Assembly (NCBI GenBank): GCA_964584065.1 | Contig: CAZOYK010000001.1 | Coordinates: 1 to 60,540, forward strand | Source: an uncultured Anaerolineaceae bacterium | GTDB taxonomy: Bacteria > Chloroflexota > Anaerolineae > Anaerolineales > Anaerolineaceae | Direction of reading: 5' to 3' | DNA: 60,540 nucleotides | Shown: positions 7,981-32,831 of the stretch, piece after piece | Layout of the letters: the number at the start of each line of letters is the position of its first letter | Numbering within the stretch: the first letter of the stretch is position 1 | The notes under the pieces: model-generated | What the model saw: only the letters and a program-made list of their open reading frames with translations | Databases searched by the model: none | What the model was told of the DNA's origin: nothing | Made by a program: the position numbers and the translations under genes

Positions 7981-10467
7981 ATGATAAAGAAAACATTTCT
8001 GATAATTGTGTTGTTGAGTTTGCTGCTTGTAGCGCCTGGCAAGCCGGTAGTAAGTCAAACCGCTACAGCCGGAGAGAATGATCCTTTGCGTACAATTGAC
8101 CTAAGTCACTTTGAACAACAGGCAGCCGCTTCTAGCGCTGTCACGCCTGCGCCGGCTGTGGATGAAGCCTTAGGGCTGCCGCCTGAGCAAGCCCAACCCA
8201 TGTTGGAAAGCGATCCGCTATCTTTTGAAATTAACTCGGGTAGGTTTGTGTATGATGATTTTAACCGCATAGATGGTGCCATAGGTGCGGGCTGGACGGT
8301 GCATAATGGTTATTGTAATATTGCCAGTAATTCAGCTGTGTGTGGTGGAGTATCTTTACCGGGTCGGGCTACCTTCAACGGTGTATCTACCGATGGTAAC
8401 ATGGCAGAAATGGATGTGGCAGTCTCAGGCACAAGCCTGCAGTATGCTGGGCTGCTGCTGAACTATGGTGCGGGCGTCAACAATCTTTTTATTAAAGTGC
8501 AGCAACAAGCTCCTTTCGAAGGAAAATTCACCCACGCCGCCTGTTACACTGGTAGCGGTGGAATCGGTTTTGGTTTGAATTTCTTTGAACTCACATCCCC
8601 TTTTATGAGCGCTCATATGAGCGCCAGGCGTGTGGGAGATACGGTTACGCTCGTTTTCTCCAACGTGGATGGGAGCACACAGCCCACGCAAACCTATACC
8701 TGCACCGGGGCACCTCCACCGGAAGGTAGCGGCATAGGCATTCTGGGTTATAACGCTATTGCCCGGATGGATAATTTTGGCGTCTCAAATAAACACATTC
8801 TTTTGGTGGATGATGATTGGGATTTTGATGAGACAGTGCCAAATGATGGTGGACGTCCTTACTACACCACTGCCCTGGATATATTGGGGTACTCTTACGC
8901 AGTTTGGGATACGGTCACCCAGGGTTCTCCCACGACAGCAGACATGCTTCCTTATGATGCCGTCATCTGGTTCACCGGTTATGCCTGGGAGGAGACAGTC
9001 TTACCCAGTGACGAGTTAGCTCTTGCTGGGTATCTTGAAGCTGGCGGTGTGCTAATCCTTTCTTCGCTGGATTATATTTATTCAGCTGGCACCGTTACAC
9101 CCTTCATGAGAGACTATCTGGGGATTTCCTCATATGATGAAGATGTTACTGAATTAGATCCCGTAGGTACTCCTGACAGTCCGATTGGAGTCGAGTTGGG
9201 ACCATATACCTTGGTGCGCCCGGATACCTGGGCGGCTTATTGGCCAGGAGTCGGCTATGAAGGACCTTACACCGATTACGTTTACCCCACACCCGAAAAT
9301 TCAGCGCCTTTCAAATTTTGGACCTCAGGTGTGACCAACAGCAGTGCTTTTGACGGAGGACACTTCCGCACAGTCTTCCTCGCCTGGCCCTTTGAATGGG
9401 TAGGTTTTGTCCTGGATCGGGCTGAGATTCTCGGCAGTATGCTTGAATGGGGACATTGGGTTGCCAAATCAGACGCCTGCTTTGATCTGACTCGTTTTGA
9501 TGCTGAATATTTCCCACGCACAGGCTTGGTATACGTTTTAGGTGGGCGTTCAGGAATTGATACGGATGGAAATATTTATGCCTATAACCCATCGACGGGT
9601 GCTTGCATAGACACGGGGGCTGATATGCCCATCCCAATCTCAAATTTCACGACCAATTTGATCAATGACGGCAGCAAAGATTTGCTGTGTACCTTTGGTG
9701 GACGTGAAGCAGGGGGTTCTAACACTCTCGCTGTCCAATGTTACGATCCCCTTGCTAACACTGCCTCTGTGGTGGCAAATTTACCAGCCGCTTACACTGG
9801 CTATGTGCCTGGGGCTCAGGTTGTTTACAACAACCGCGTTTATATTTTCGGTGGATTCAACTCCTATGCAGCCCCGTATGATCTCGCCCGCACTGACCGT
9901 TACAATCCTATAACCAAATCCTTTACCCAGCTCGGCAACCTTAGCCTGGCACGCAGCTATATTTATGCGGCAGAAGTAGCTGGCAAGATCTATGCTTTTG
10001 GCGGTACGATCAGTGATCCAGGAGGTTTGTTGGCACAAACGCGAGCGGAAGTGATGGCAGATCCTGAAGGTGCAGGCACCTGGAATGATGCTGCCGTACC
10101 GGACTTGCCTTCACCGATGGGCGAAGGTCGGGCATTTGGCTTTGATTCAGCAGACGGTATCGACAGGCTGACTGATAAGATCGTTTTTGTTGGCGGCGGC
10201 GATTGGCCGAATGAAACCGGTGATGGTTGGACGTATGATACCCTGACCCACACTTACGATGTGAGTTTTCCCGATTTGCAGGAGTTCAGACGCGACCATG
10301 CGGGTGTCTATGTCCCCCTCGATTCTTCCAACCAGGCTGACGGACTGCCAGGTTTATGGGTAATTGGCGGTCATAGTGGATCTGACGCTCCGCCTTATGC
10401 TGGAGTGGAGTACTTCCCACTCAACTACAACTTCCTCTATGCCTTTCTCCCGTTAGTCCTGAAGTAG
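7981..10467 (+). CDS. Secreted multidomain protein: signal peptide, lectin/LamG-like domain, flavodoxin-like spacer domain, six-bladed Kelch-type propeller
   Basis: GAAAGGAG RBS. N-terminal MIKKTFLIIVLLSLLLVAPG signal peptide. Six spaced x-GG blades (VYVLGGRSG, CTFGGREAG, VYIFGGFNS, IYAFGGTIS, IVFVGGGDW, LWVIGGHSG). Confidence 0.65.
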   Translation: MIKKTFLIIVLLSLLLVAPGKPVVSQTATAGENDPLRTIDLSHFEQQAAASSAVTPAPAVDEALGLPPEQAQPMLESDPLSFEINSGRFVYDDFNRIDGAIGAGWTVHNGYCNIASNSAVCGGVSLPGRATFNGVSTDGNMAEMDVAVSGTSLQYAGLLLNYGAGVNNLFIKVQQQAPFEGKFTHAACYTGSGGIGFGLNFFELTSPFMSAHMSARRVGDTVTLVFSNVDGSTQPTQTYTCTGAPPPEGSGIGILGYNAIARMDNFGVSNKHILLVDDDWDFDETVPNDGGRPYYTTALDILGYSYAVWDTVTQGSPTTADMLPYDAVIWFTGYAWEETVLPSDELALAGYLEAGGVLILSSLDYIYSAGTVTPFMRDYLGISSYDEDVTELDPVGTPDSPIGVELGPYTLVRPDTWAAYWPGVGYEGPYTDYVYPTPENSAPFKFWTSGVTNSSAFDGGHFRTVFLAWPFEWVGFVLDRAEILGSMLEWGHWVAKSDACFDLTRFDAEYFPRTGLVYVLGGRSGIDTDGNIYAYNPSTGACIDTGADMPIPISNFTTNLINDGSKDLLCTFGGREAGGSNTLAVQCYDPLANTASVVANLPAAYTGYVPGAQVVYNNRVYIFGGFNSYAAPYDLARTDRYNPITKSFTQLGNLSLARSYIYAAEVAGKIYAFGGTISDPGGLLAQTRAEVMADPEGAGTWNDAAVPDLPSPMGEGRAFGFDSADGIDRLTDKIVFVGGGDWPNETGDGWTYDTLTHTYDVSFPDLQEFRRDHAGVYVPLDSSNQADGLPGLWVIGGHSGSDAPPYAGVEYFPLNYNFLYAFLPLVLK

Positions 10468-10486
10468 GACAGTTGGCTGTGATTTA

Positions 10487-12803: not shown

Positions 12804-13757
12804 TTGCGTGAGGCTGATTTGCAAAAGTATTTTAAAGAATATCAATGGTCCAACATCAATGCCATGCTGCGCAACCTTAAGTCAAGCCCGGAAATCTGCA
12901 CGGACGATTTTAATGACCAATTGGTCATAATTACCGGGGCGACCTCAGGCATTGGTTATGCGGCCGCAAAAAAATACGCCTCTCACGGCGCTGAACTGCT
13001 CTGCATCAATCGGAATGAACAAAAGTCAAAAGAGACGTGTGATGCGATTCAAAGCCAGTATGGCACCAGTTGCACCTATTGGATTGCGGATCTCTCACGG
13101 CTTGCTGAAGTCCATTCCGTGGGAAAGAAACTGGCCGCACTTGAGAGGGACATTGACGTGCTGATCCACAACGCGGGTGTCTATAACACAAAGAAGATCA
13201 TCACAGCGGATAACCTGGAAGCAAGCTTCCAAACGAACTACCTGAGCACATTCATTTTGAATCATTACCTCAAGGAAAAATTCATCAAGCAGAAAAGCGG
13301 ACGCATCCTGTTCGTCAACTCTGAAGCCCACCGGTTCGCCGCCTGGGGTCTGCACCTGGATGATCTTACCTGGGAAAAGCACGCCTATTCGGGGCTGAAA
13401 GCTTACGGCGCCGCGAAGTTGGCGCAGTTACTCTCGATGATCAAGCTCAACGAGGCATTCCTTGGGTCAGGGGCAACGGTAAACGCTATGCACCCGGGCA
13501 ACGTCAAGACGAACAGCGGGCAAAACAACGGTCCCATCTACAAGTTTTTCAAGCGGATCTTTATTGATCGCTCAGCGCAGTCTGCCAACATTGCCGCTGA
13601 AGCGCTCTATTTTTTGGGCGTTTCCAAAAGCCTGGAGAAGGTTTCGGGTAAATTTTTCAATCTCACAACCGAAGAAGAGCCAGCTCCCCCGGCGTGGGAT
13701 AAGGATGCCGCCGAAGAACTTTGGACACTCAGCTGCAAGTTAGGTGGAGTGAAATGA
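12804..13757 (+). CDS. Short-chain dehydrogenase/reductase (retinol-dehydrogenase-like classical SDR)
   Basis: ITGATSGIGYAAA, IHNAGV and the catalytic YGAAK. The TTG start at 12804 is uncertain; ATG 12864 is an alternative. Confidence 0.8.
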   Translation: MREADLQKYFKEYQWSNINAMLRNLKSSPEICTDDFNDQLVIITGATSGIGYAAAKKYASHGAELLCINRNEQKSKETCDAIQSQYGTSCTYWIADLSRLAEVHSVGKKLAALERDIDVLIHNAGVYNTKKIITADNLEASFQTNYLSTFILNHYLKEKFIKQKSGRILFVNSEAHRFAAWGLHLDDLTWEKHAYSGLKAYGAAKLAQLLSMIKLNEAFLGSGATVNAMHPGNVKTNSGQNNGPIYKFFKRIFIDRSAQSANIAAEALYFLGVSKSLEKVSGKFFNLTTEEEPAPPAWDKDAAEELWTLSCKLGGVK

Positions 13758-18755: not shown

Positions 18756-19454
18756 ATGGAATCTGAGAAGAAAACATCGATTGTTCGTATCGCAGTCATG
18801 CTGCTCTTGGTGATGGTTTTATTTCCCCTGCTTCCGATGATCATTTCTGGGAGGTGGGACTGGTGGCAAGCCTGGGTGATGGGGCTGCTATTCATTCTGA
18901 GCTTCATCGTCAGCCGTGCCATCGCCGCCAAAAAGACCCCGGACATCCTCAAGGAGCGCGCAGACTACGCAACCCAGGGTAATACCCAATCCTGGGATAA
19001 GTGGCTCTCCCCAATCATGGCATTTGGCAGCGTTTTCGTCCTGCTGGCTGCTGGATTGGATGAGCTGTTTGATTGGTCTCCTGACCTTGCTTTCGGATTG
19101 GAATTGCTTGGCCTCGCGCTGATCCTGACCGGCTATGTTTTCGGCTCTTTTGCCTTTGTTGAGAACGCCTTTTTTTCTGGCACTGTCCGCCTGCAACCAG
19201 AACGGGGTCAGACCGTCGTATCCACTGGACCATACGCTTGGGTGCGGCACCCGGGCTACCTCGGCAGCCTGATCGCCAGCCTTGGCATGCCCTTGCTGCT
19301 CGACTCTTTATGGGCTTTCGTGCCTGTGGTCATTTTTGGCTCTTTCTTCGTCCTGCGCACCAGTCTTGAAGATCGCTTCCTGCAAGAAAACCTATCAGGT
19401 TACAGTGAATACGCAAACAAGGTTCACTACCGCCTGTTTCCCGGGATTTGGTGA
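18756..19454 (+). CDS. Isoprenylcysteine carboxyl methyltransferase (ICMT/PEMT) family membrane methyltransferase
   Basis: Multi-TM with the C-terminal signature GPYAWVRHPGYLGSLI ... LEDRFL...YSEY. Confidence 0.8.
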   Translation: MESEKKTSIVRIAVMLLLVMVLFPLLPMIISGRWDWWQAWVMGLLFILSFIVSRAIAAKKTPDILKERADYATQGNTQSWDKWLSPIMAFGSVFVLLAAGLDELFDWSPDLAFGLELLGLALILTGYVFGSFAFVENAFFSGTVRLQPERGQTVVSTGPYAWVRHPGYLGSLIASLGMPLLLDSLWAFVPVVIFGSFFVLRTSLEDRFLQENLSGYSEYANKVHYRLFPGIW

Positions 19455-19562
19455 AATCTGATTTGGCGGTTGATGCTGCTGGTGTGTTTGCGCATTAATT
19501 CTTAACGCTCTGATATCATTGCCCTGTACGTAATAAACCTCATAATTAGAAAGGGAAATACT

Positions 19563-20036
19563 ATGCCCCGCGTATCACTCAACCAACCCGCACCCAATTT
19601 CACCCTCCCCGATTTTTCCGGGAAGGACTTCACCCTGTCTGACCTGAAAGGTCAAAAAATCGTTTTGTTGGTGTTCAACCGCACCTTTGCCTGACCATTC
19701 TGCCAAAAGCATATGGCGCAGTTGCGTCATGACCACACAGAATTTGTATCCCGCGATGTTGCCGTTGTAGTTGTTGGTCCTGAAGATGCCCAGGGCTTTT
19801 CAGACTATTGGCAAAAAGAAAACCTGCCTTTCATTGGGCTGCCTGACCCTAAAGCCAGCGTATTGAAGCTCTACGGCCAGGAGGTGAACCTCTTCAAACT
19901 GGGGCGCATGCCCGCCCAGGTGCTGATCGACAAGGAAGGCATCGCGCGCTTTGTTCATTATGGACACAGCATGAGCGATATCCCCAGCAACGAGGAGATT
20001 TTGGGGCTCGTGGATGAAATCAACCAGGCAAAATAA
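19563..20036 (+). CDS. Peroxiredoxin-like (PRX_like2/AhpC-TSA redoxin) protein with in-frame TGA at the first Cys of the CxxC motif; candidate selenoprotein (U-P-F-C)
   Basis: ATG 19563 reads MPRVSLNQPAPNFTLPDFSGKDFTLSDLKGQKIVLLVFNRTFA-TGA(19692-19694)-PFCQKHMAQL. This continues in frame into ORF-track 19713-20036 and gives a complete thioredoxin-fold redoxin. Confidence 0.6.
19712..19731 (+). promoter_or_regulatory. Candidate bacterial SECIS hairpin downstream of the TGA
   Basis: UAUGGCGC [AGUU] GCGUCAUG forms an 8-bp stem (2 G-U) with an apical loop containing GU. The loop starts 28 nt after the UGA. Confidence 0.4.
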
Positions 20037-31499: not shown

Positions 31500-32831
31500 A
31501 TGAAAGGTAAGGAATTGATGGTCAAAGATGAATTGATTCAGGATATTCAGAAAAAACGTGCAAATATTGCCGTGATAGGTTTGGGCTATGTGGGGTTACC
31601 ACTGGCTGTGACTTTCGCTAACGCCGGCTTCAGCGTGACGGGCATTGATCCCATCCAGGAAAAAGTGGACATGATCAACCGCGGTGAAAGTTACATTTCT
31701 GATATCAGCAACGCGCAGTTGCGCAAGCATATCGATAATGGTCGCATCCGTGCCACAACCGAATATGCAACCCTCAGCGAGATTGACGCTGTCTCCATCT
31801 GCGTGCCGACGCCGCTGCGTAAAACCGGCGATCCTGATATGTCCTTTATCGCTCAAGCCAGCGAAGACATCGCCCCTTACCTGCACCGCAGCATGATCAT
31901 CGTGCTCGAATCCAGCACCTATCCCGGAACAACCCGCGAATTTGTTCTGCCGAAACTAACCGCCAATACCGACCTCAAGGTGGGCACGGACTTCTTCCTG
32001 GCTTTCTCTCCTGAACGCGTTGACCCCGGGCGCACGGATTTCACCACCTATAACACTCCCAAGGTCGTTGGCGGCATCACCCAGGCTTGCACGGATGTTG
32101 CCGTGGCGTGGTACCAGCAGGCGCTTGAAAAAGTTGTGCCCGTTTCCACCACTGAAGTGGCAGAAATGGCAAAACTGCTCGAGAACACCTTCCGAATGAT
32201 CAATATTTCGATGGTCAACGAGCTGGCGCAGATGTGTGAGCGCTTGGACGTGGACGTGTGGGAGGTGATTGACGCCGCCGCCACCAAGCCATTCGGCTTC
32301 ATGAAGTTCACCCCCGGACCCGGTCTGGGTGGGCACTGCATCCCGGTGGACCCACTATATCTTTCCTGGAAGATGAAAACCCTCAACTACACCGCGCGCT
32401 TCATTGAACTTGCTTCAGAGATCAACACCAGCATGCCGCGATACGTGGTCACCCGCATTCAGGATGCCCTGAACCGCTATAAAAAACCGCTCAACGGGAG
32501 CAAGATTCTGATACTGGGCGTTTCCTATAAGCCCAACATCAACGATATGCGCGAATCACCCGCCCTCGATATCATCCACCTCCTGCGTGAGAAAGGTGCC
32601 GTCGTCGCCTACTATGATCCTTACGTCCCTGAGATTGAGATTGAAGGCGTTCAGATGTATTCAGAAAAAGAGCTTTCAACCTTCCTCGAGAAGTCTGATT
32701 TGGTAGCCATTATTACAAACCATGAGAAATTTGACTACAAACTGATTCTCGAGAAGTCGCAGCTGATCTTTGATGCCCGTAATGCCATGAAAGATATAGC
32801 GAAAAACGACCTGAAAGTGATCAAGCTGTAA
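31500..32831 (+). CDS. Nucleotide-sugar 6-dehydrogenase (UDP-GlcNAc/ManNAc/Glc dehydrogenase family)
   Basis: IAVIGLGYVGLPLA NAD motif and catalytic-Cys block GGHCIPVDP. ATG 31518 (AAGGA RBS) is an alternative start. Confidence 0.85.
   Translation: MKGKELMVKDELIQDIQKKRANIAVIGLGYVGLPLAVTFANAGFSVTGIDPIQEKVDMINRGESYISDISNAQLRKHIDNGRIRATTEYATLSEIDAVSICVPTPLRKTGDPDMSFIAQASEDIAPYLHRSMIIVLESSTYPGTTREFVLPKLTANTDLKVGTDFFLAFSPERVDPGRTDFTTYNTPKVVGGITQACTDVAVAWYQQALEKVVPVSTTEVAEMAKLLENTFRMINISMVNELAQMCERLDVDVWEVIDAAATKPFGFMKFTPGPGLGGHCIPVDPLYLSWKMKTLNYTARFIELASEINTSMPRYVVTRIQDALNRYKKPLNGSKILILGVSYKPNINDMRESPALDIIHLLREKGAVVAYYDPYVPEIEIEGVQMYSEKELSTFLEKSDLVAIITNHEKFDYKLILEKSQLIFDARNAMKDIAKNDLKVIKL

What the first reader, a model, noticed from the sequence alone, without database searches (positions are those of the whole stretch)
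19563..20036. In-frame TGA exactly at the first cysteine of a redoxin CxxC motif: candidate selenoprotein split by the ORF track
Reading from ATG 19563 gives a textbook redoxin N-terminus: APNFTLPDFSGKDFTLSDLKGQKIVLLVFNRTFA, then TGA (19692-19694), then PFCQKHMAQLRHDH... This continues in frame into the annotated 107-aa ORF. Relatives in the PRX_like2 / AhpC-TSA redoxin family carry W/A-C-P-F-C at this point, so the stop codon sits where the redox-active Cys belongs (U-P-F-C). Sec/Cys replacement at CxxC sites of thioredoxin-fold proteins is a well-established pattern in bacterial selenoproteomes. An 8-bp hairpin with a GU-containing tetraloop (19712-19731) lies at a plausible bSECIS distance, with the loop starting 28 nt after the UGA.
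Basis: partly seen in the sequence, partly recalled or inferred. Interest (0 to 1): 0.65.

Follow-up and report, generated by a model that had tools for sequence, protein, structure and literature searches.

The report
Selenocysteine redoxin gene split by annotation
This is very probably a real gene for a small selenium-containing redox enzyme whose selenocysteine codon (TGA) is misread as a stop by annotation pipelines, so it is a known kind of thing, but one that public databases get wrong in hundreds of genomes.

Summary
ORF 19563-20036 (+) is one 157-codon AhpC-TSA/Redoxin-fold gene with an in-frame TGA at 19692-19694.

- **Position of the TGA.** It sits at the first position of a U-P-F-C motif. 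That position aligns with the N-terminal Cys of the CPHC motif in ResA.
- **Conservation.** The TGA is neither an error nor a pseudogene lesion. All 91 distinct orthologue DNA sequences I recovered carry TGA at codon 44. They include all 80 of the species-representative genomes kept (Anaerolineae, Caldilineaceae, Thermoleophilia, Coriobacteriia and one Clostridia).
- **Translation across the TGA.** Purifying selection acts on both sides of the codon, including the six codons between the TGA and the next ATG.
- **Cys variants.** Natural TGT and TGC forms exist.
- **RNA element.** Synonymous sites are frozen only over ATG-GCG-CAG-TTG-CGY. This stretch forms a GC-rich hairpin with an AGUU loop 25 nt after the UGA, and it meets every criterion of the published bacterial SECIS model.
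- **Genetic code.** TGA is otherwise a normal stop codon in this genome.
- **Not shown.** I could not check selA, selB, selD or tRNA-Sec in this genome. Literature shows that cultured Anaerolineae have them.

Verdict: a genuine UxxC selenoprotein and a new member of a known kind (Prx-like/redoxin selenoproteins). Gene callers systematically split it, or call the codon as Trp.

The parts
19563..20036 (+). Complete coding sequence of a 157-codon Prx-like/redoxin selenoprotein. It runs from ATG to TAA, with the internal UGA read as Sec.
   Evidence: Searches show a single AhpC-TSA/Redoxin domain spanning residues 7-137. The AlphaFold model of the 86%-identical Cys form P0001 is one compact domain (pLDDT 93.7). 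All 91 distinct orthologue sequences carry TGA at codon 44, and 90 of them keep the frame open either side (L039 has an extra TAG at codon 31).
19692..19694 (+). In-frame TGA (codon 44), the proposed Sec codon. It is the first position of the U-P-F-C redox motif.
   Evidence: TGA is present in 91 of 91 distinct orthologue sequences. It aligns with the N-terminal Cys of the ResA CPHC motif. It is replaced by TGT or TGC in natural variants. In the model it lies at the N-cap of helix 45-56.
19701..19703 (+). TGC (Cys47), the resolving or partner cysteine of the UxxC motif.
   Evidence: Cys47 is invariant in 91 of 91 sequences, and 90 of 91 use TGC. It aligns with the second Cys of the ResA CxxC.
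19695..19712 (+). Six codons (P-F-C-Q-K-H) between the TGA and the next ATG. They are translated, which shows read-through rather than re-initiation.
   Evidence: P45, F46, C47 and H50 are 96-100% conserved as amino acids, while P45 uses 4 codons and H50 uses 2. For this stretch pS = 0.535 and pN/pS = 0.26.
19712..19731 (+). bSECIS-like hairpin. In the window it is an 8-bp stem with the apical loop AGUU at 19720-19723. The family-wide conserved core is 19714-19729, a 6-bp stem U-G-G-C-G-C / G-C-G-Y-C-A.
   Evidence: -9.4 kcal/mol. RNAalifold recovers the 6-bp helix across 87 sequences, and 98.5% of cells are paired in the 7-pair structure I specified. The stretch ATGGCGCAGTTGCGYC is nucleotide-invariant at synonymous sites. 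pS is 0.215 here against 0.71-0.76 in the flanks. It meets the four criteria of the bSECIS model quoted.
19549..19556 (+). Shine-Dalgarno-like GAAAGGGA, ending 6 nt before the ATG at 19563.
   Evidence: Read directly from the sequence. Inference only.
19519..19546 (+). Weak sigma-70-like promoter match (TTGCCC, 16 nt, CATAAT).
   Evidence: 9 of 12 positions match, and the count of such sites is no higher than in shuffled sequence. Weak evidence.

Best explanation
The locus encodes one cytoplasmic thioredoxin-fold protein of about 157 residues, of the Prx-like/redoxin type. Its redox motif is Sec44-Pro-Phe-Cys47.

**Decoding (inferred).** The UGA at 19692-19694 is decoded as selenocysteine by Sec-tRNA(Sec) delivered by SelB. 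SelB is recruited by the hairpin that begins 20 nt downstream. That hairpin has a GC-rich stem and an AGUU loop, with G and U at loop positions 2 and 3. It is embedded in the codons for M-A-Q-L-R.

**Chemistry (inferred).** Sec44 sits at the N-terminus of the first helix. It is the nucleophile that attacks a peroxide or a disulfide substrate. The resulting selenenic acid or mixed selenenylsulfide is resolved by Cys47 into an intramolecular Se-S bond. A thioredoxin-type reductant then reduces that bond.

**Shown here.**
- TGA is conserved at the catalytic column.
- The sequence is translated across the TGA.
- Cys variants exist.
- An overlapping conserved RNA hairpin fits the bSECIS model.
- TGA is a normal stop elsewhere in the window.

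**Inferred, not shown.** That the inserted residue is Sec, that SelB binds this hairpin, and what the substrate and reductant are.
For: 1. **Deep conservation of the TGA.** It is present in 13 of 13 distinct close relatives and in 80 of 80 species-representative genomes at 65-96% aa identity, from Chloroflexota, Actinomycetota and one Clostridia MAG. That makes 91 of 91 distinct sequences. One of them is the cultured isolate Levilinea saccharolytica KIBI-1 (L055).

2. **Purifying selection on both sides of the TGA.** pN/pS is 0.35 for codons 1-43, 0.26 for codons 45-50 and 0.22 for codons 57-150, with pS near saturation at 0.71-0.76.

3. **Sec/Cys pairing.** TGT is found in L102, and TGC in L104/L105, the latter from independent ENA and JGI samples. 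The distant homologues ResA (CPHC) and 3hdc (CPYC) place their first Cys at this column.

4. **A conserved RNA element.** Codons 51-55 are frozen at synonymous sites: GCG 88/89, CAG 91/91, TTG 91/91 and CGY only. Other conserved Ala, Gln, Leu and Arg codons in the gene use 2-6 codons. pS is 0.215 here. The two variable positions change only between pairing-compatible states: G-C or G-U at the inner pair, and U-G or C-G at the outer pair.

5. **bSECIS model met.** The loop is 4 nt and the stem 6-8 bp. G is at loop position 2 and is followed by U. There are 25 nt between the UGA and the loop. The hairpin energy is -9.4 kcal/mol.

6. **No codon reassignment.** In the window, 17 of 45 long ORFs end in TGA. 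In 25 of 77 family genes, TGA is also the real terminator.

7. **Structure.** In the high-confidence model, residue 44 sits at the N-cap of helix 45-56, and strands from residues 3-38 are part of the core sheet. The best structural matches are Bcp peroxiredoxins and ResA.

8. **Sec use in related lineages.**
- Anaerolinea thermophila UNI-1 and Caldilinea aerophila are SelD+, SelA+ and SelB+, with 4 and 3 selenoproteins respectively (PMC5029168 Tables S1/S2).
- tRNA-Sec genes have been reported in Chloroflexi and Actinobacteria (PMC5389517).
- A second TGA-containing gene with a PxxxTxxU motif lies 8 kb from the redoxin gene in Anaerolineae MAG Nak19.
Against: The Sec machinery was not demonstrated for this genome. 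There is no tRNA-Sec in the window. The window plus 106 loci (1.57 Mb) contain no tRNA-Sec and no selA, selB or selD. The rest of the genome cannot be reached with these tools.

The hairpin shows almost no compensatory covariation because it hardly varies (observed values equal the shuffled ones). Its support is frozen synonymous sites, not covariation. The two Cys forms I checked keep the same hairpin nucleotides. No Rfam family matches it. There is no protein-level or selenium-labelling evidence.
Confidence: 0.9

Rival explanations
1. SECIS-dependent read-through that inserts cysteine, not selenocysteine. A tRNA-Sec-like tRNA(Cys), known as tRNAReC or selC*, would be delivered by SelB and read the UGA as Cys, either constitutively or when selenium is scarce.
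For: tRNAReC-type tRNAs that decode UGA as Cys in the presence of a SECIS have been reported (Vargas-Rodriguez et al. 2018, as cited in PMC13582414). They occur in 13-17% of the genomes surveyed there. Cys is tolerated at this position in nature.
Against: In the cases described, tRNAReC-like tRNAs were found in addition to the canonical tRNA-Sec, so this is a side route of the same system. If Cys were the intended residue, a TGC codon would do the job at no cost. Yet TGA is kept in 91 of 91 sequences across three phyla. No tRNA of this type is present in the sequence I hold.
Confidence: 0.04
2. Non-Sec handling of the UGA. Either near-cognate read-through inserts an ordinary amino acid such as Trp, or translation terminates at the UGA and re-initiates at ATG 19713, giving two peptides of 43 aa and 107 aa.
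For: Gene callers produce exactly these two ORFs. An ATG lies 18 nt after the TGA. Database proteins show Trp at the column.
Against: In the two cases checked, the Trp is a gene-calling artefact: the DNA is TGA and translates_to_query is 'no'. Codons 45-50 lie between the TGA and the ATG. They are conserved as amino acids with free synonymous change, including the invariant Cys47, so they are translated in frame with the upstream part. Splitting at residue 44 would cut the fold at its active site. The column is the catalytic Cys in homologues, which Trp could not replace.
Confidence: 0.03
3. The gene is a nonsense pseudogene, the TGA is an assembly or sequencing error, or the organism uses a genetic code in which TGA is a sense codon.
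For: A single sequence with an in-frame stop is compatible with all three. One relative (L039) does look decayed, with an extra TAG at codon 31 plus R40H and R64C.
Against: The identical TGA appears in independent assemblies from NCBI, JGI, ENA and Logan and in 80 of 80 species representatives. Purifying selection acts on both sides. TGA ends 17 of 45 long ORFs in the window, and it ends 25 of 77 family genes themselves.
Confidence: 0.01

Closest known systems
Prx-like thiol:disulfide oxidoreductase selenoproteins (PF00578; UxxC or UxxU). First predicted in Geobacter, Syntrophus and Desulfotalea, and listed under 'predicted with high confidence' in the 2026 review PMC13188914.
   Same: Same Pfam domain, with AhpC-TSA scoring above its cut-off. 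Same UxxC motif with Sec at the N-terminal position. A bSECIS lies directly downstream in the coding region. The hosts are anaerobes.
   Different: Orthology to the exemplar WP_010940744.1 could not be tested. The hosts here are Anaerolineae, Thermoleophilia and Coriobacteriia, not Deltaproteobacteria. The family signature (FNR-x-F-x-U-P-F-C-x-x-HMAQLR, GRMPAQ, HYGHSMSDIP) is its own.
'Redoxin family protein' selenoprotein (PF08534; UxxC; exemplar HEU0032618.1), listed in the same review from the GOS study and the Peng et al. 2016 study.
   Same: PF08534 scores above its cut-off (72 bits), and it is the first family listed for the database homologues. The motif is UxxC. The exemplar is a MAG protein.
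   Different: I could not retrieve the exemplar sequence, so whether it is the same family is unknown.
ResA/TlpA-type thiol-disulfide oxidoreductases (for example B. subtilis ResA; PDB 1st9, 3c71).
   Same: ResA is the best sequence match among solved structures. U44 and C47 align with the two Cys of its CxxC. Foldseek TM-scores are 0.7-0.84.
   Different: ResA is a membrane-anchored, extracytoplasmic Cys protein. The protein here starts directly with the domain (it aligns from residue 2-8 onward to the solved soluble domains; no signal-peptide or TM prediction was run), uses Sec, and scores far below the NCBIfam ResA cut-off (44.8 against 170 bits).
BCP/PrxQ-type peroxiredoxins and the selenoprotein PrxU (NF040737; TxxU motif).
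   Same: The best fold match is Sulfolobus Bcp1, 3drn, with TM 0.8. An invariant Arg115 in GRMPAQ aligns with the Arg of 'pARi' in Bcp1 3drn, which I take from my own knowledge to be the conserved catalytic Arg of peroxiredoxins. JGI annotation names the fragments 'peroxiredoxin Q/BCP'.
   Different: The PxxxT/SxxC motif that defines peroxiredoxins is not kept. There is no Pro at position -7, and Thr at -3 occurs in only 68% of sequences. The motif is a CxxC-type UxxC. The match to NF040737 is only 21 bits against a cut-off of 270.
SelL-related redox protein (NCBIfam NF040769) and eukaryotic SelL (Prx-like2; UxxU).
   Same: NF040769 is the best NCBIfam hit (3.4e-22, residues 8-105). It is also a Prx-like fold with the redox motif at the same place.
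   Different: The score is 78.9 bits against a cut-off of 120, and only profile positions 1-99 of 173 are matched. By NCBI's own threshold it is not a member.

Membership tests
Bacterial selenoprotein gene (UGA recoded to Sec) | The in-frame UGA is conserved among orthologues, with coding conservation on both sides. | tested here: met
   TGA is present in 91 of 91 distinct sequences. pN/pS is 0.35 upstream and 0.22-0.26 downstream.
Bacterial selenoprotein gene (UGA recoded to Sec) | Sec/Cys pairing: homologues carry Cys at the UGA column. | tested here: met
   TGT in L102 and TGC in L104/L105. ResA CPHC and 3hdc CPYC align at this column.
Bacterial selenoprotein gene (UGA recoded to Sec) | A bSECIS lies downstream of the UGA. 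The model requires a 3-9 nt loop, a 4-16 bp stem, a G in the first two loop positions, 16-37 nt spacing, and MFE of -7.5 kcal/mol or lower. | tested here: met
   The criteria were taken from PMC13188914 Fig. 2A. Here the loop is AGUU, the stem is 6-8 bp, the spacing is 25 nt and the energy is -9.4 kcal/mol. The element is conserved through frozen synonymous sites.
Bacterial selenoprotein gene (UGA recoded to Sec) | selA, selB, selD and tRNA-Sec are present in the same genome. | not testable with these tools
   They are absent from the window and from the 106 fetched loci, which cover only a small part of each genome. Indirect support: Anaerolinea thermophila and Caldilinea aerophila are SelD/SelA/SelB positive.
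Bacterial selenoprotein gene (UGA recoded to Sec) | Selenium is demonstrated in the protein by 75Se labelling or mass spectrometry. | not testable with these tools
   This is an experiment.
Pfam AhpC-TSA (PF00578) / Redoxin (PF08534) | The domain score exceeds the gathering cut-off. | tested here: met
   79.7 bits against a cut-off of 26, and 72.1 bits against 26.6.
Peroxiredoxin proper (Prx) | The active-site motif PxxxT/SxxC, with the peroxidatic Cys. | tested here: not met
   Position -7 is Val37, not Pro. Position -3 is Thr in only 68% of sequences; in the sequences listed the alternatives are mostly Gly, with a few Ala.
Peroxiredoxin proper (Prx) | A conserved catalytic Arg precedes the strand that carries 'xxID'. 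| tested here: met
   R115 in GRMPAQVLID is invariant. It aligns with the Arg of 'pARi..tfvID' in Bcp1 3drn. That this is the catalytic Arg of peroxiredoxins rests on my own knowledge.
SelL-related redox protein (NF040769) | The score exceeds the NCBIfam cut-off of 120 bits. | tested here: not met
   78.9 bits, and the match is partial.
ResA-type thiol-disulfide oxidoreductase (NF002854) | The score exceeds the cut-off of 170 bits. | tested here: not met
   44.8 bits.
Prx-like thiol:disulfide oxidoreductase selenoprotein family (Zhang and Gladyshev) | A PF00578 domain with a UxxC or UxxU motif. | tested here: met
Prx-like thiol:disulfide oxidoreductase selenoprotein family (Zhang and Gladyshev) | Orthology to the exemplar WP_010940744.1. 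| not tested

The most novel reading that the evidence does not exclude
This redoxin-U gene and its SECIS may have moved as a unit between Chloroflexota, Actinomycetota and Firmicutes. The evidence is 67-76% amino-acid identity across phyla together with a 16-nt SECIS core that is identical at the nucleotide level. If so, the hairpin (GGCGC-AGUU-GCGYC) would be an unusually rigid, lineage-spanning SelB recognition code. It might co-transfer with the atypical 8/4-type tRNA-Sec reported in exactly these two phyla. A related reading is that the UGA acts as a selenium-dependent switch between a full-length enzyme and a 43-aa product.
Probability: 0.15. Interest if true: 0.5.

Novelty: new member of a known kind. 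Interest (0 to 1): 0.35.

Why it matters
**Annotation.** The biological principle is textbook: Sec replaces the nucleophilic Cys of a thioredoxin-fold CxxC motif. The practical value lies in annotation. The genome scan matched this family in at least 587 stretches of species-representative genome sequence. In public protein sets it appears in two wrong forms. One is a truncated 105-111 aa 'peroxiredoxin Q/BCP' that lacks its active site. The other, on short contigs, is a full-length protein with a spurious Trp, because the gene caller switched to genetic code 4.

**Ecology.** The carriers include Anaerolineae MAGs and metagenome contigs, some with names pointing to anaerobic reactors and enrichment cultures (for example AnMBR bins), so the gene is a marker of selenium dependence in these lineages.

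**Experiment.** One cultured carrier, Levilinea saccharolytica KIBI-1, makes a direct test possible.

**Method.** The sharply frozen synonymous sites make this a clean example of how to detect a bSECIS by comparative analysis when covariation is absent.

Tried and rejected
- **Trp-column family.** The first protein alignment showed W at the stop column in most full-length homologues. I rejected this reading after looking at the DNA. P0002 (L103) and P0015 (L106) have TGA and do not translate to the database protein under code 11.
- **Covariation support for the hairpin.** This led nowhere because the stem hardly varies. Observed values equal the shuffled ones. I used synonymous-site statistics instead.
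- **Single-sequence folding.** The z-score was not significant.
- **Rfam.** There were no hits at gathering thresholds across the window. A permissive search of 19540-19860 gave only chance snoRNA and Xist hits.
- **Sec machinery.** ARAGORN found no tRNA-Sec in the window or in 1.57 Mb of window plus loci. This is uninformative, because only about 20 kb per genome was available.
- **Conserved neighbourhood.** The adjacent ICMT/PEMT-like methyltransferase and the other neighbours are shared only with close relatives. No operon partner emerged.
- **Other TGA-interrupted conserved ORFs.** I scanned all loci and the window, giving 4,058 candidates. Only one convincing extra candidate came out, the L068 Prx-Grx fusion. 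The rest were off-frame echoes of conserved genes.
- **Other copies of the SECIS core.** One occurrence in the window at about 31713 has the loop and inner stem only. I did not examine its reading-frame context, so it remains uninterpreted.
- **tRNAReC.** The mBio 2017 paper on SepRS/SepCysS, which I checked as a lead for UGA-to-Cys recoding in Chloroflexi, contains nothing on it. The tRNAReC concept is cited from PMC13582414 instead.
Full report
**1. The observation**

The window sequence from 19563 to 20036 (+) translates as one frame of 157 codons. It is interrupted only by TGA at 19692-19694 and ends with TAA. The mechanical ORF list shows the two halves as 19563-19694 (43 aa) and 19713-20036 (107 aa), in the same frame.

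With Cys substituted for the stop, the whole protein matches Pfam AhpC-TSA (2.2e-22, residues 7-129) and Redoxin (5.6e-20, residues 7-137). The domain therefore runs straight across the TGA.

It has 8 pairs and the loop AGUU. On its own it folds at -9.4 kcal/mol. The 81-nt region is not more stable than shuffles (z = 0.67). A GAAAGGGA Shine-Dalgarno-like motif ends 6 nt before the ATG.

**2. Is the stop real, and is it conserved?**

A protein search found thousands of homologues. Many relatives at 85-98% identity are called as ORFs of 105-111 aa that begin at the same internal Met. I fetched the DNA for eight of these proteins, which gave 21 loci. They come from independent NCBI, JGI, ENA and Logan assemblies and sit in at least three different genomic contexts. 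All have TGA at codon 44, preceded by an intact and conserved N-terminal part.

A scan of one genome per species returned 587 tBLASTn-confirmed stretches. The 80 best have 65-96% identity. They come from Anaerolineae, Caldilineaceae, Thermoleophilia, Coriobacteriia, one Clostridia MAG, the isolate Levilinea saccharolytica KIBI-1, and a complete MAG chromosome. All 80 carry TGA at codon 44.

In total, 91 of 91 distinct sequences have TGA there. Only one, L039, shows signs of decay, with an extra TAG at codon 31.

**3. An apparent contradiction, resolved**

In the first alignment, most full-length database proteins had Trp at the stop column. That would have argued against a Sec/Cys site.

The DNA shows otherwise. 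P0002 (L103) and P0015 (L106) have TGA. The lookup tool reports that these loci do not translate to the database protein under code 11. These 'W' proteins come from short contigs, where the metagenome gene caller evidently chose a code in which TGA means Trp.

Genuine Cys forms do exist. P0001 has TGT (L102). P0036 has TGC (L104/L105), seen in contigs from separate ENA and JGI samples.

**4. Translation goes through the TGA**

The mean pairwise synonymous difference is near saturation both upstream (pS 0.71, codons 1-43) and downstream (0.76, codons 57-150). The pN/pS ratios are 0.35 and 0.22.

The six codons between the TGA and the next ATG encode P-F-C-x-x-H. They are conserved as amino acids while their synonymous sites vary: Pro45 uses four codons, His50 uses two, pS is 0.535 and pN/pS is 0.26. 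This excludes a model of termination followed by re-initiation at ATG 19713.

TGA has not been reassigned. It ends 17 of 45 long ORFs in the window, and it is the true terminator of 25 of 77 genes of this same family.

**5. The RNA element**

Across the 91 sequences, synonymous sites are frozen in one short stretch only. The frozen codons are TGC47 (90/91), ATG51, GCG52 (88/89), CAG53 (91/91), TTG54 (91/91) and CGY55 (CGC 60, CGT 31, and no other Arg codon). Conserved Ala, Gln, Leu and Arg codons elsewhere in the gene use two to six codons. For codons 51-56, pS falls to 0.215.

RNAalifold recovers a 6-bp helix, U-G-G-C-G-C / G-C-G-Y-C-A, closed by the loop AGUU. In the 7-pair structure I specified, 98.5% of cells are paired. 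The variable positions switch only between G-C and G-U, or between U-G and C-G.

There is essentially no compensatory covariation, and the shuffle control is not exceeded. The support is therefore sequence invariance at silent sites, not covariation.

The element meets the four criteria of the bacterial SECIS consensus quoted in the 2026 review PMC13188914:

| Criterion | Required | Observed |
|---|---|---|
| Apical loop | 3-9 nt | 4 nt |
| Upper stem | 4-16 bp | 6-8 bp |
| G in first two loop positions | yes | G at position 2, followed by U |
| Spacing from UGA to loop | 16-37 nt | 25 nt |
| MFE | -7.5 kcal/mol or lower | -9.4 kcal/mol |

No Rfam family matches it.

The two Cys variants I checked still carry the hairpin nucleotides. 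This fits recent Sec-to-Cys conversion. PMC13582414 reports the same pattern for Cys-type hydrogenases, where close Cys relatives keep SECIS-like structures. A more diverged Cys form, P0048, reads HAAKLR instead of HMAQLR, which cannot encode the same stem.

**6. What the protein is**

The closest solved sequences are B. subtilis ResA and a Geobacter thioredoxin-family protein. Their CPHC and CPYC motifs align with U44-P-F-C47.

I modelled the 86%-identical Cys form P0001 with AlphaFold. The model is a single compact domain (pLDDT 93.7, pTM 0.90). Residues 3-38 contribute strands, and residue 44 sits at the N-cap of helix 45-56. Foldseek places it with Bcp/PrxQ peroxiredoxins (TM about 0.8) and with ResA/TlpA oxidoreductases (TM 0.7-0.84).

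The protein carries an invariant Arg115 that aligns with the Arg of 'pARi' in Bcp1 3drn, which I take to be the peroxiredoxin catalytic Arg. It lacks the PxxxT/SxxC motif that defines peroxiredoxins. The best NCBIfam match is 'SelL-related redox protein', at 78.9 bits, below the cut-off of 120.

The protein is therefore Prx-like, with a thioredoxin-type UxxC centre. The protein starts directly with the domain, aligning from residue 2-8 onward to the solved soluble domains, which suggests a cytoplasmic protein; I ran no signal-peptide or membrane-segment prediction. Its neighbourhood is not conserved beyond close relatives.

**7. Mechanism**

The UGA is read as Sec by SelB carrying Sec-tRNA(Sec), which the downstream hairpin recruits. 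Sec44 attacks a peroxide or a disulfide. Cys47 resolves the intermediate into a Se-S bond. A thioredoxin-type system reduces that bond.

Shown here:
- conservation of the codon
- translation across it
- Sec/Cys pairing
- a conserved hairpin of bSECIS type

Inferred:
- the identity of the inserted residue
- SelB binding to the hairpin
- the substrate and the reductant

**8. The gap**

I could not examine the rest of this genome. There is no tRNA-Sec in the window. There is no tRNA-Sec, selA, selB or selD in the window plus 106 loci, a total of 1.57 Mb.

Indirect support comes from three sources.
- Peng et al. 2016 score Anaerolinea thermophila UNI-1 and Caldilinea aerophila as SelD+, SelA+ and SelB+, with 4 and 3 selenoproteins.
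- tRNA-Sec genes, of an 8/4 type, have been reported in Chloroflexi and Actinobacteria.
- In Anaerolineae MAG Nak19, a Prx-Grx fusion gene lies 8 kb from the redoxin gene. It has TGA in P-L-A-W-T-P-I-U, the peroxidatic position. It also has a downstream hairpin with a G-first loop 29 nt after the UGA.

**9. Rivals**

- **Cys insertion by a tRNAReC-type tRNA through the same SECIS and SelB route (about 0.04).** It cannot be excluded. It is a side branch of the same system, and it would not explain why TGA is kept everywhere.
- **Near-cognate read-through or termination with re-initiation (about 0.03).** Sections 3 and 4 contradict it.
- **Pseudogene, sequencing error or reassigned code (about 0.01).** Sections 2 and 4 refute it.

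**10. Comparison with what is known, and novelty**

UxxC selenoproteins with AhpC-TSA or Redoxin domains are established predicted families. They include 'Prx-like thiol:disulfide oxidoreductase' (PF00578; UxxC or UxxU) and 'Redoxin family protein' (PF08534; UxxC). I could not retrieve their exemplar sequences, so I cannot say whether this exact orthologous group has already been catalogued.

I rate it a new member of a known kind. A specialist would not find it surprising.

Its value is practical. It is a widespread, well-supported selenoprotein that public pipelines split or mistranslate. It has an unusually invariant SECIS shared across phyla. One carrier is cultured, which allows a direct test.

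Confidence that it is a genuine Sec-encoding gene is 0.9. Interest is 0.35.

Noticed in passing
L068:13139-13915 (+), with the TGA at 13274-13276: In Anaerolineae MAG Nak19, 8 kb downstream of its redoxin-U gene, there is a 258-codon peroxiredoxin-glutaredoxin fusion ORF. It has an in-frame TGA exactly at the peroxidatic Cys (P-L-A-W-T-P-I-U). A stable hairpin follows (-22.7 kcal/mol), and its apical loop starts with G 29 nt after the UGA. It is probably a second selenoprotein, of the PrxU type (TxxU).
   Followed up: partly
L103:342-821 and L106:63-530 (database proteins P0002 and P0015): Database proteins of this family that show Trp at the Sec column are gene-calling artefacts. The DNA has TGA, and the contigs are short. 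The caller evidently used a code in which TGA means Trp. On long contigs, the gene is instead split into 43-aa and 105-111-aa ORFs, some of which are named 'peroxiredoxin Q/BCP'.
   Followed up: yes
L039:7315-7779: One Anaerolineae MAG (PPR_0249) has an additional in-frame TAG at codon 31, along with R40H and R64C changes at otherwise invariant residues. It looks like a decaying copy or a poor assembly.
   Followed up: partly
L033, L035, L040, L076 and L087 (match regions around 10001-10470): Copies in Thermoleophilia, Coriobacteriia and one Clostridia MAG are 67-76% identical in protein to the Anaerolineae window gene. They carry the same 16-nt SECIS core. That is high for cross-phylum orthologues and suggests horizontal transfer of the gene together with its SECIS.
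   Followed up: no
Proteins P0018, P0073 (Arg) and P0072 (Leu): A few full-length database homologues show Arg or Leu at the Sec column. Each is one nucleotide away from TGA (CGA or AGA for Arg; TTA for Leu). I did not check their DNA, so they may be real loss-of-Sec variants or errors.
   Followed up: no
Family genes in L022-L101: In 25 of 77 family members, TGA is the real terminator of the same gene that uses TGA at codon 44. This is a compact illustration of context-dependent decoding.
   Followed up: yes
window 18756-19454 (+): A 232-aa ICMT/PEMT-family methyltransferase gene lies directly upstream of the selenoprotein gene. It recurs within about 2 kb of the gene in several close relatives (L001, L002, L009-L014, L022, L025-L027), on either side. 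It is absent in more distant carriers, so a functional link is doubtful.
   Followed up: partly
window around 31713-31726 (+): This is the only other occurrence in the window of the SECIS inner core (GCGCAGTTGCGC). I did not examine its reading-frame context, so it is uninterpreted.
   Followed up: partly
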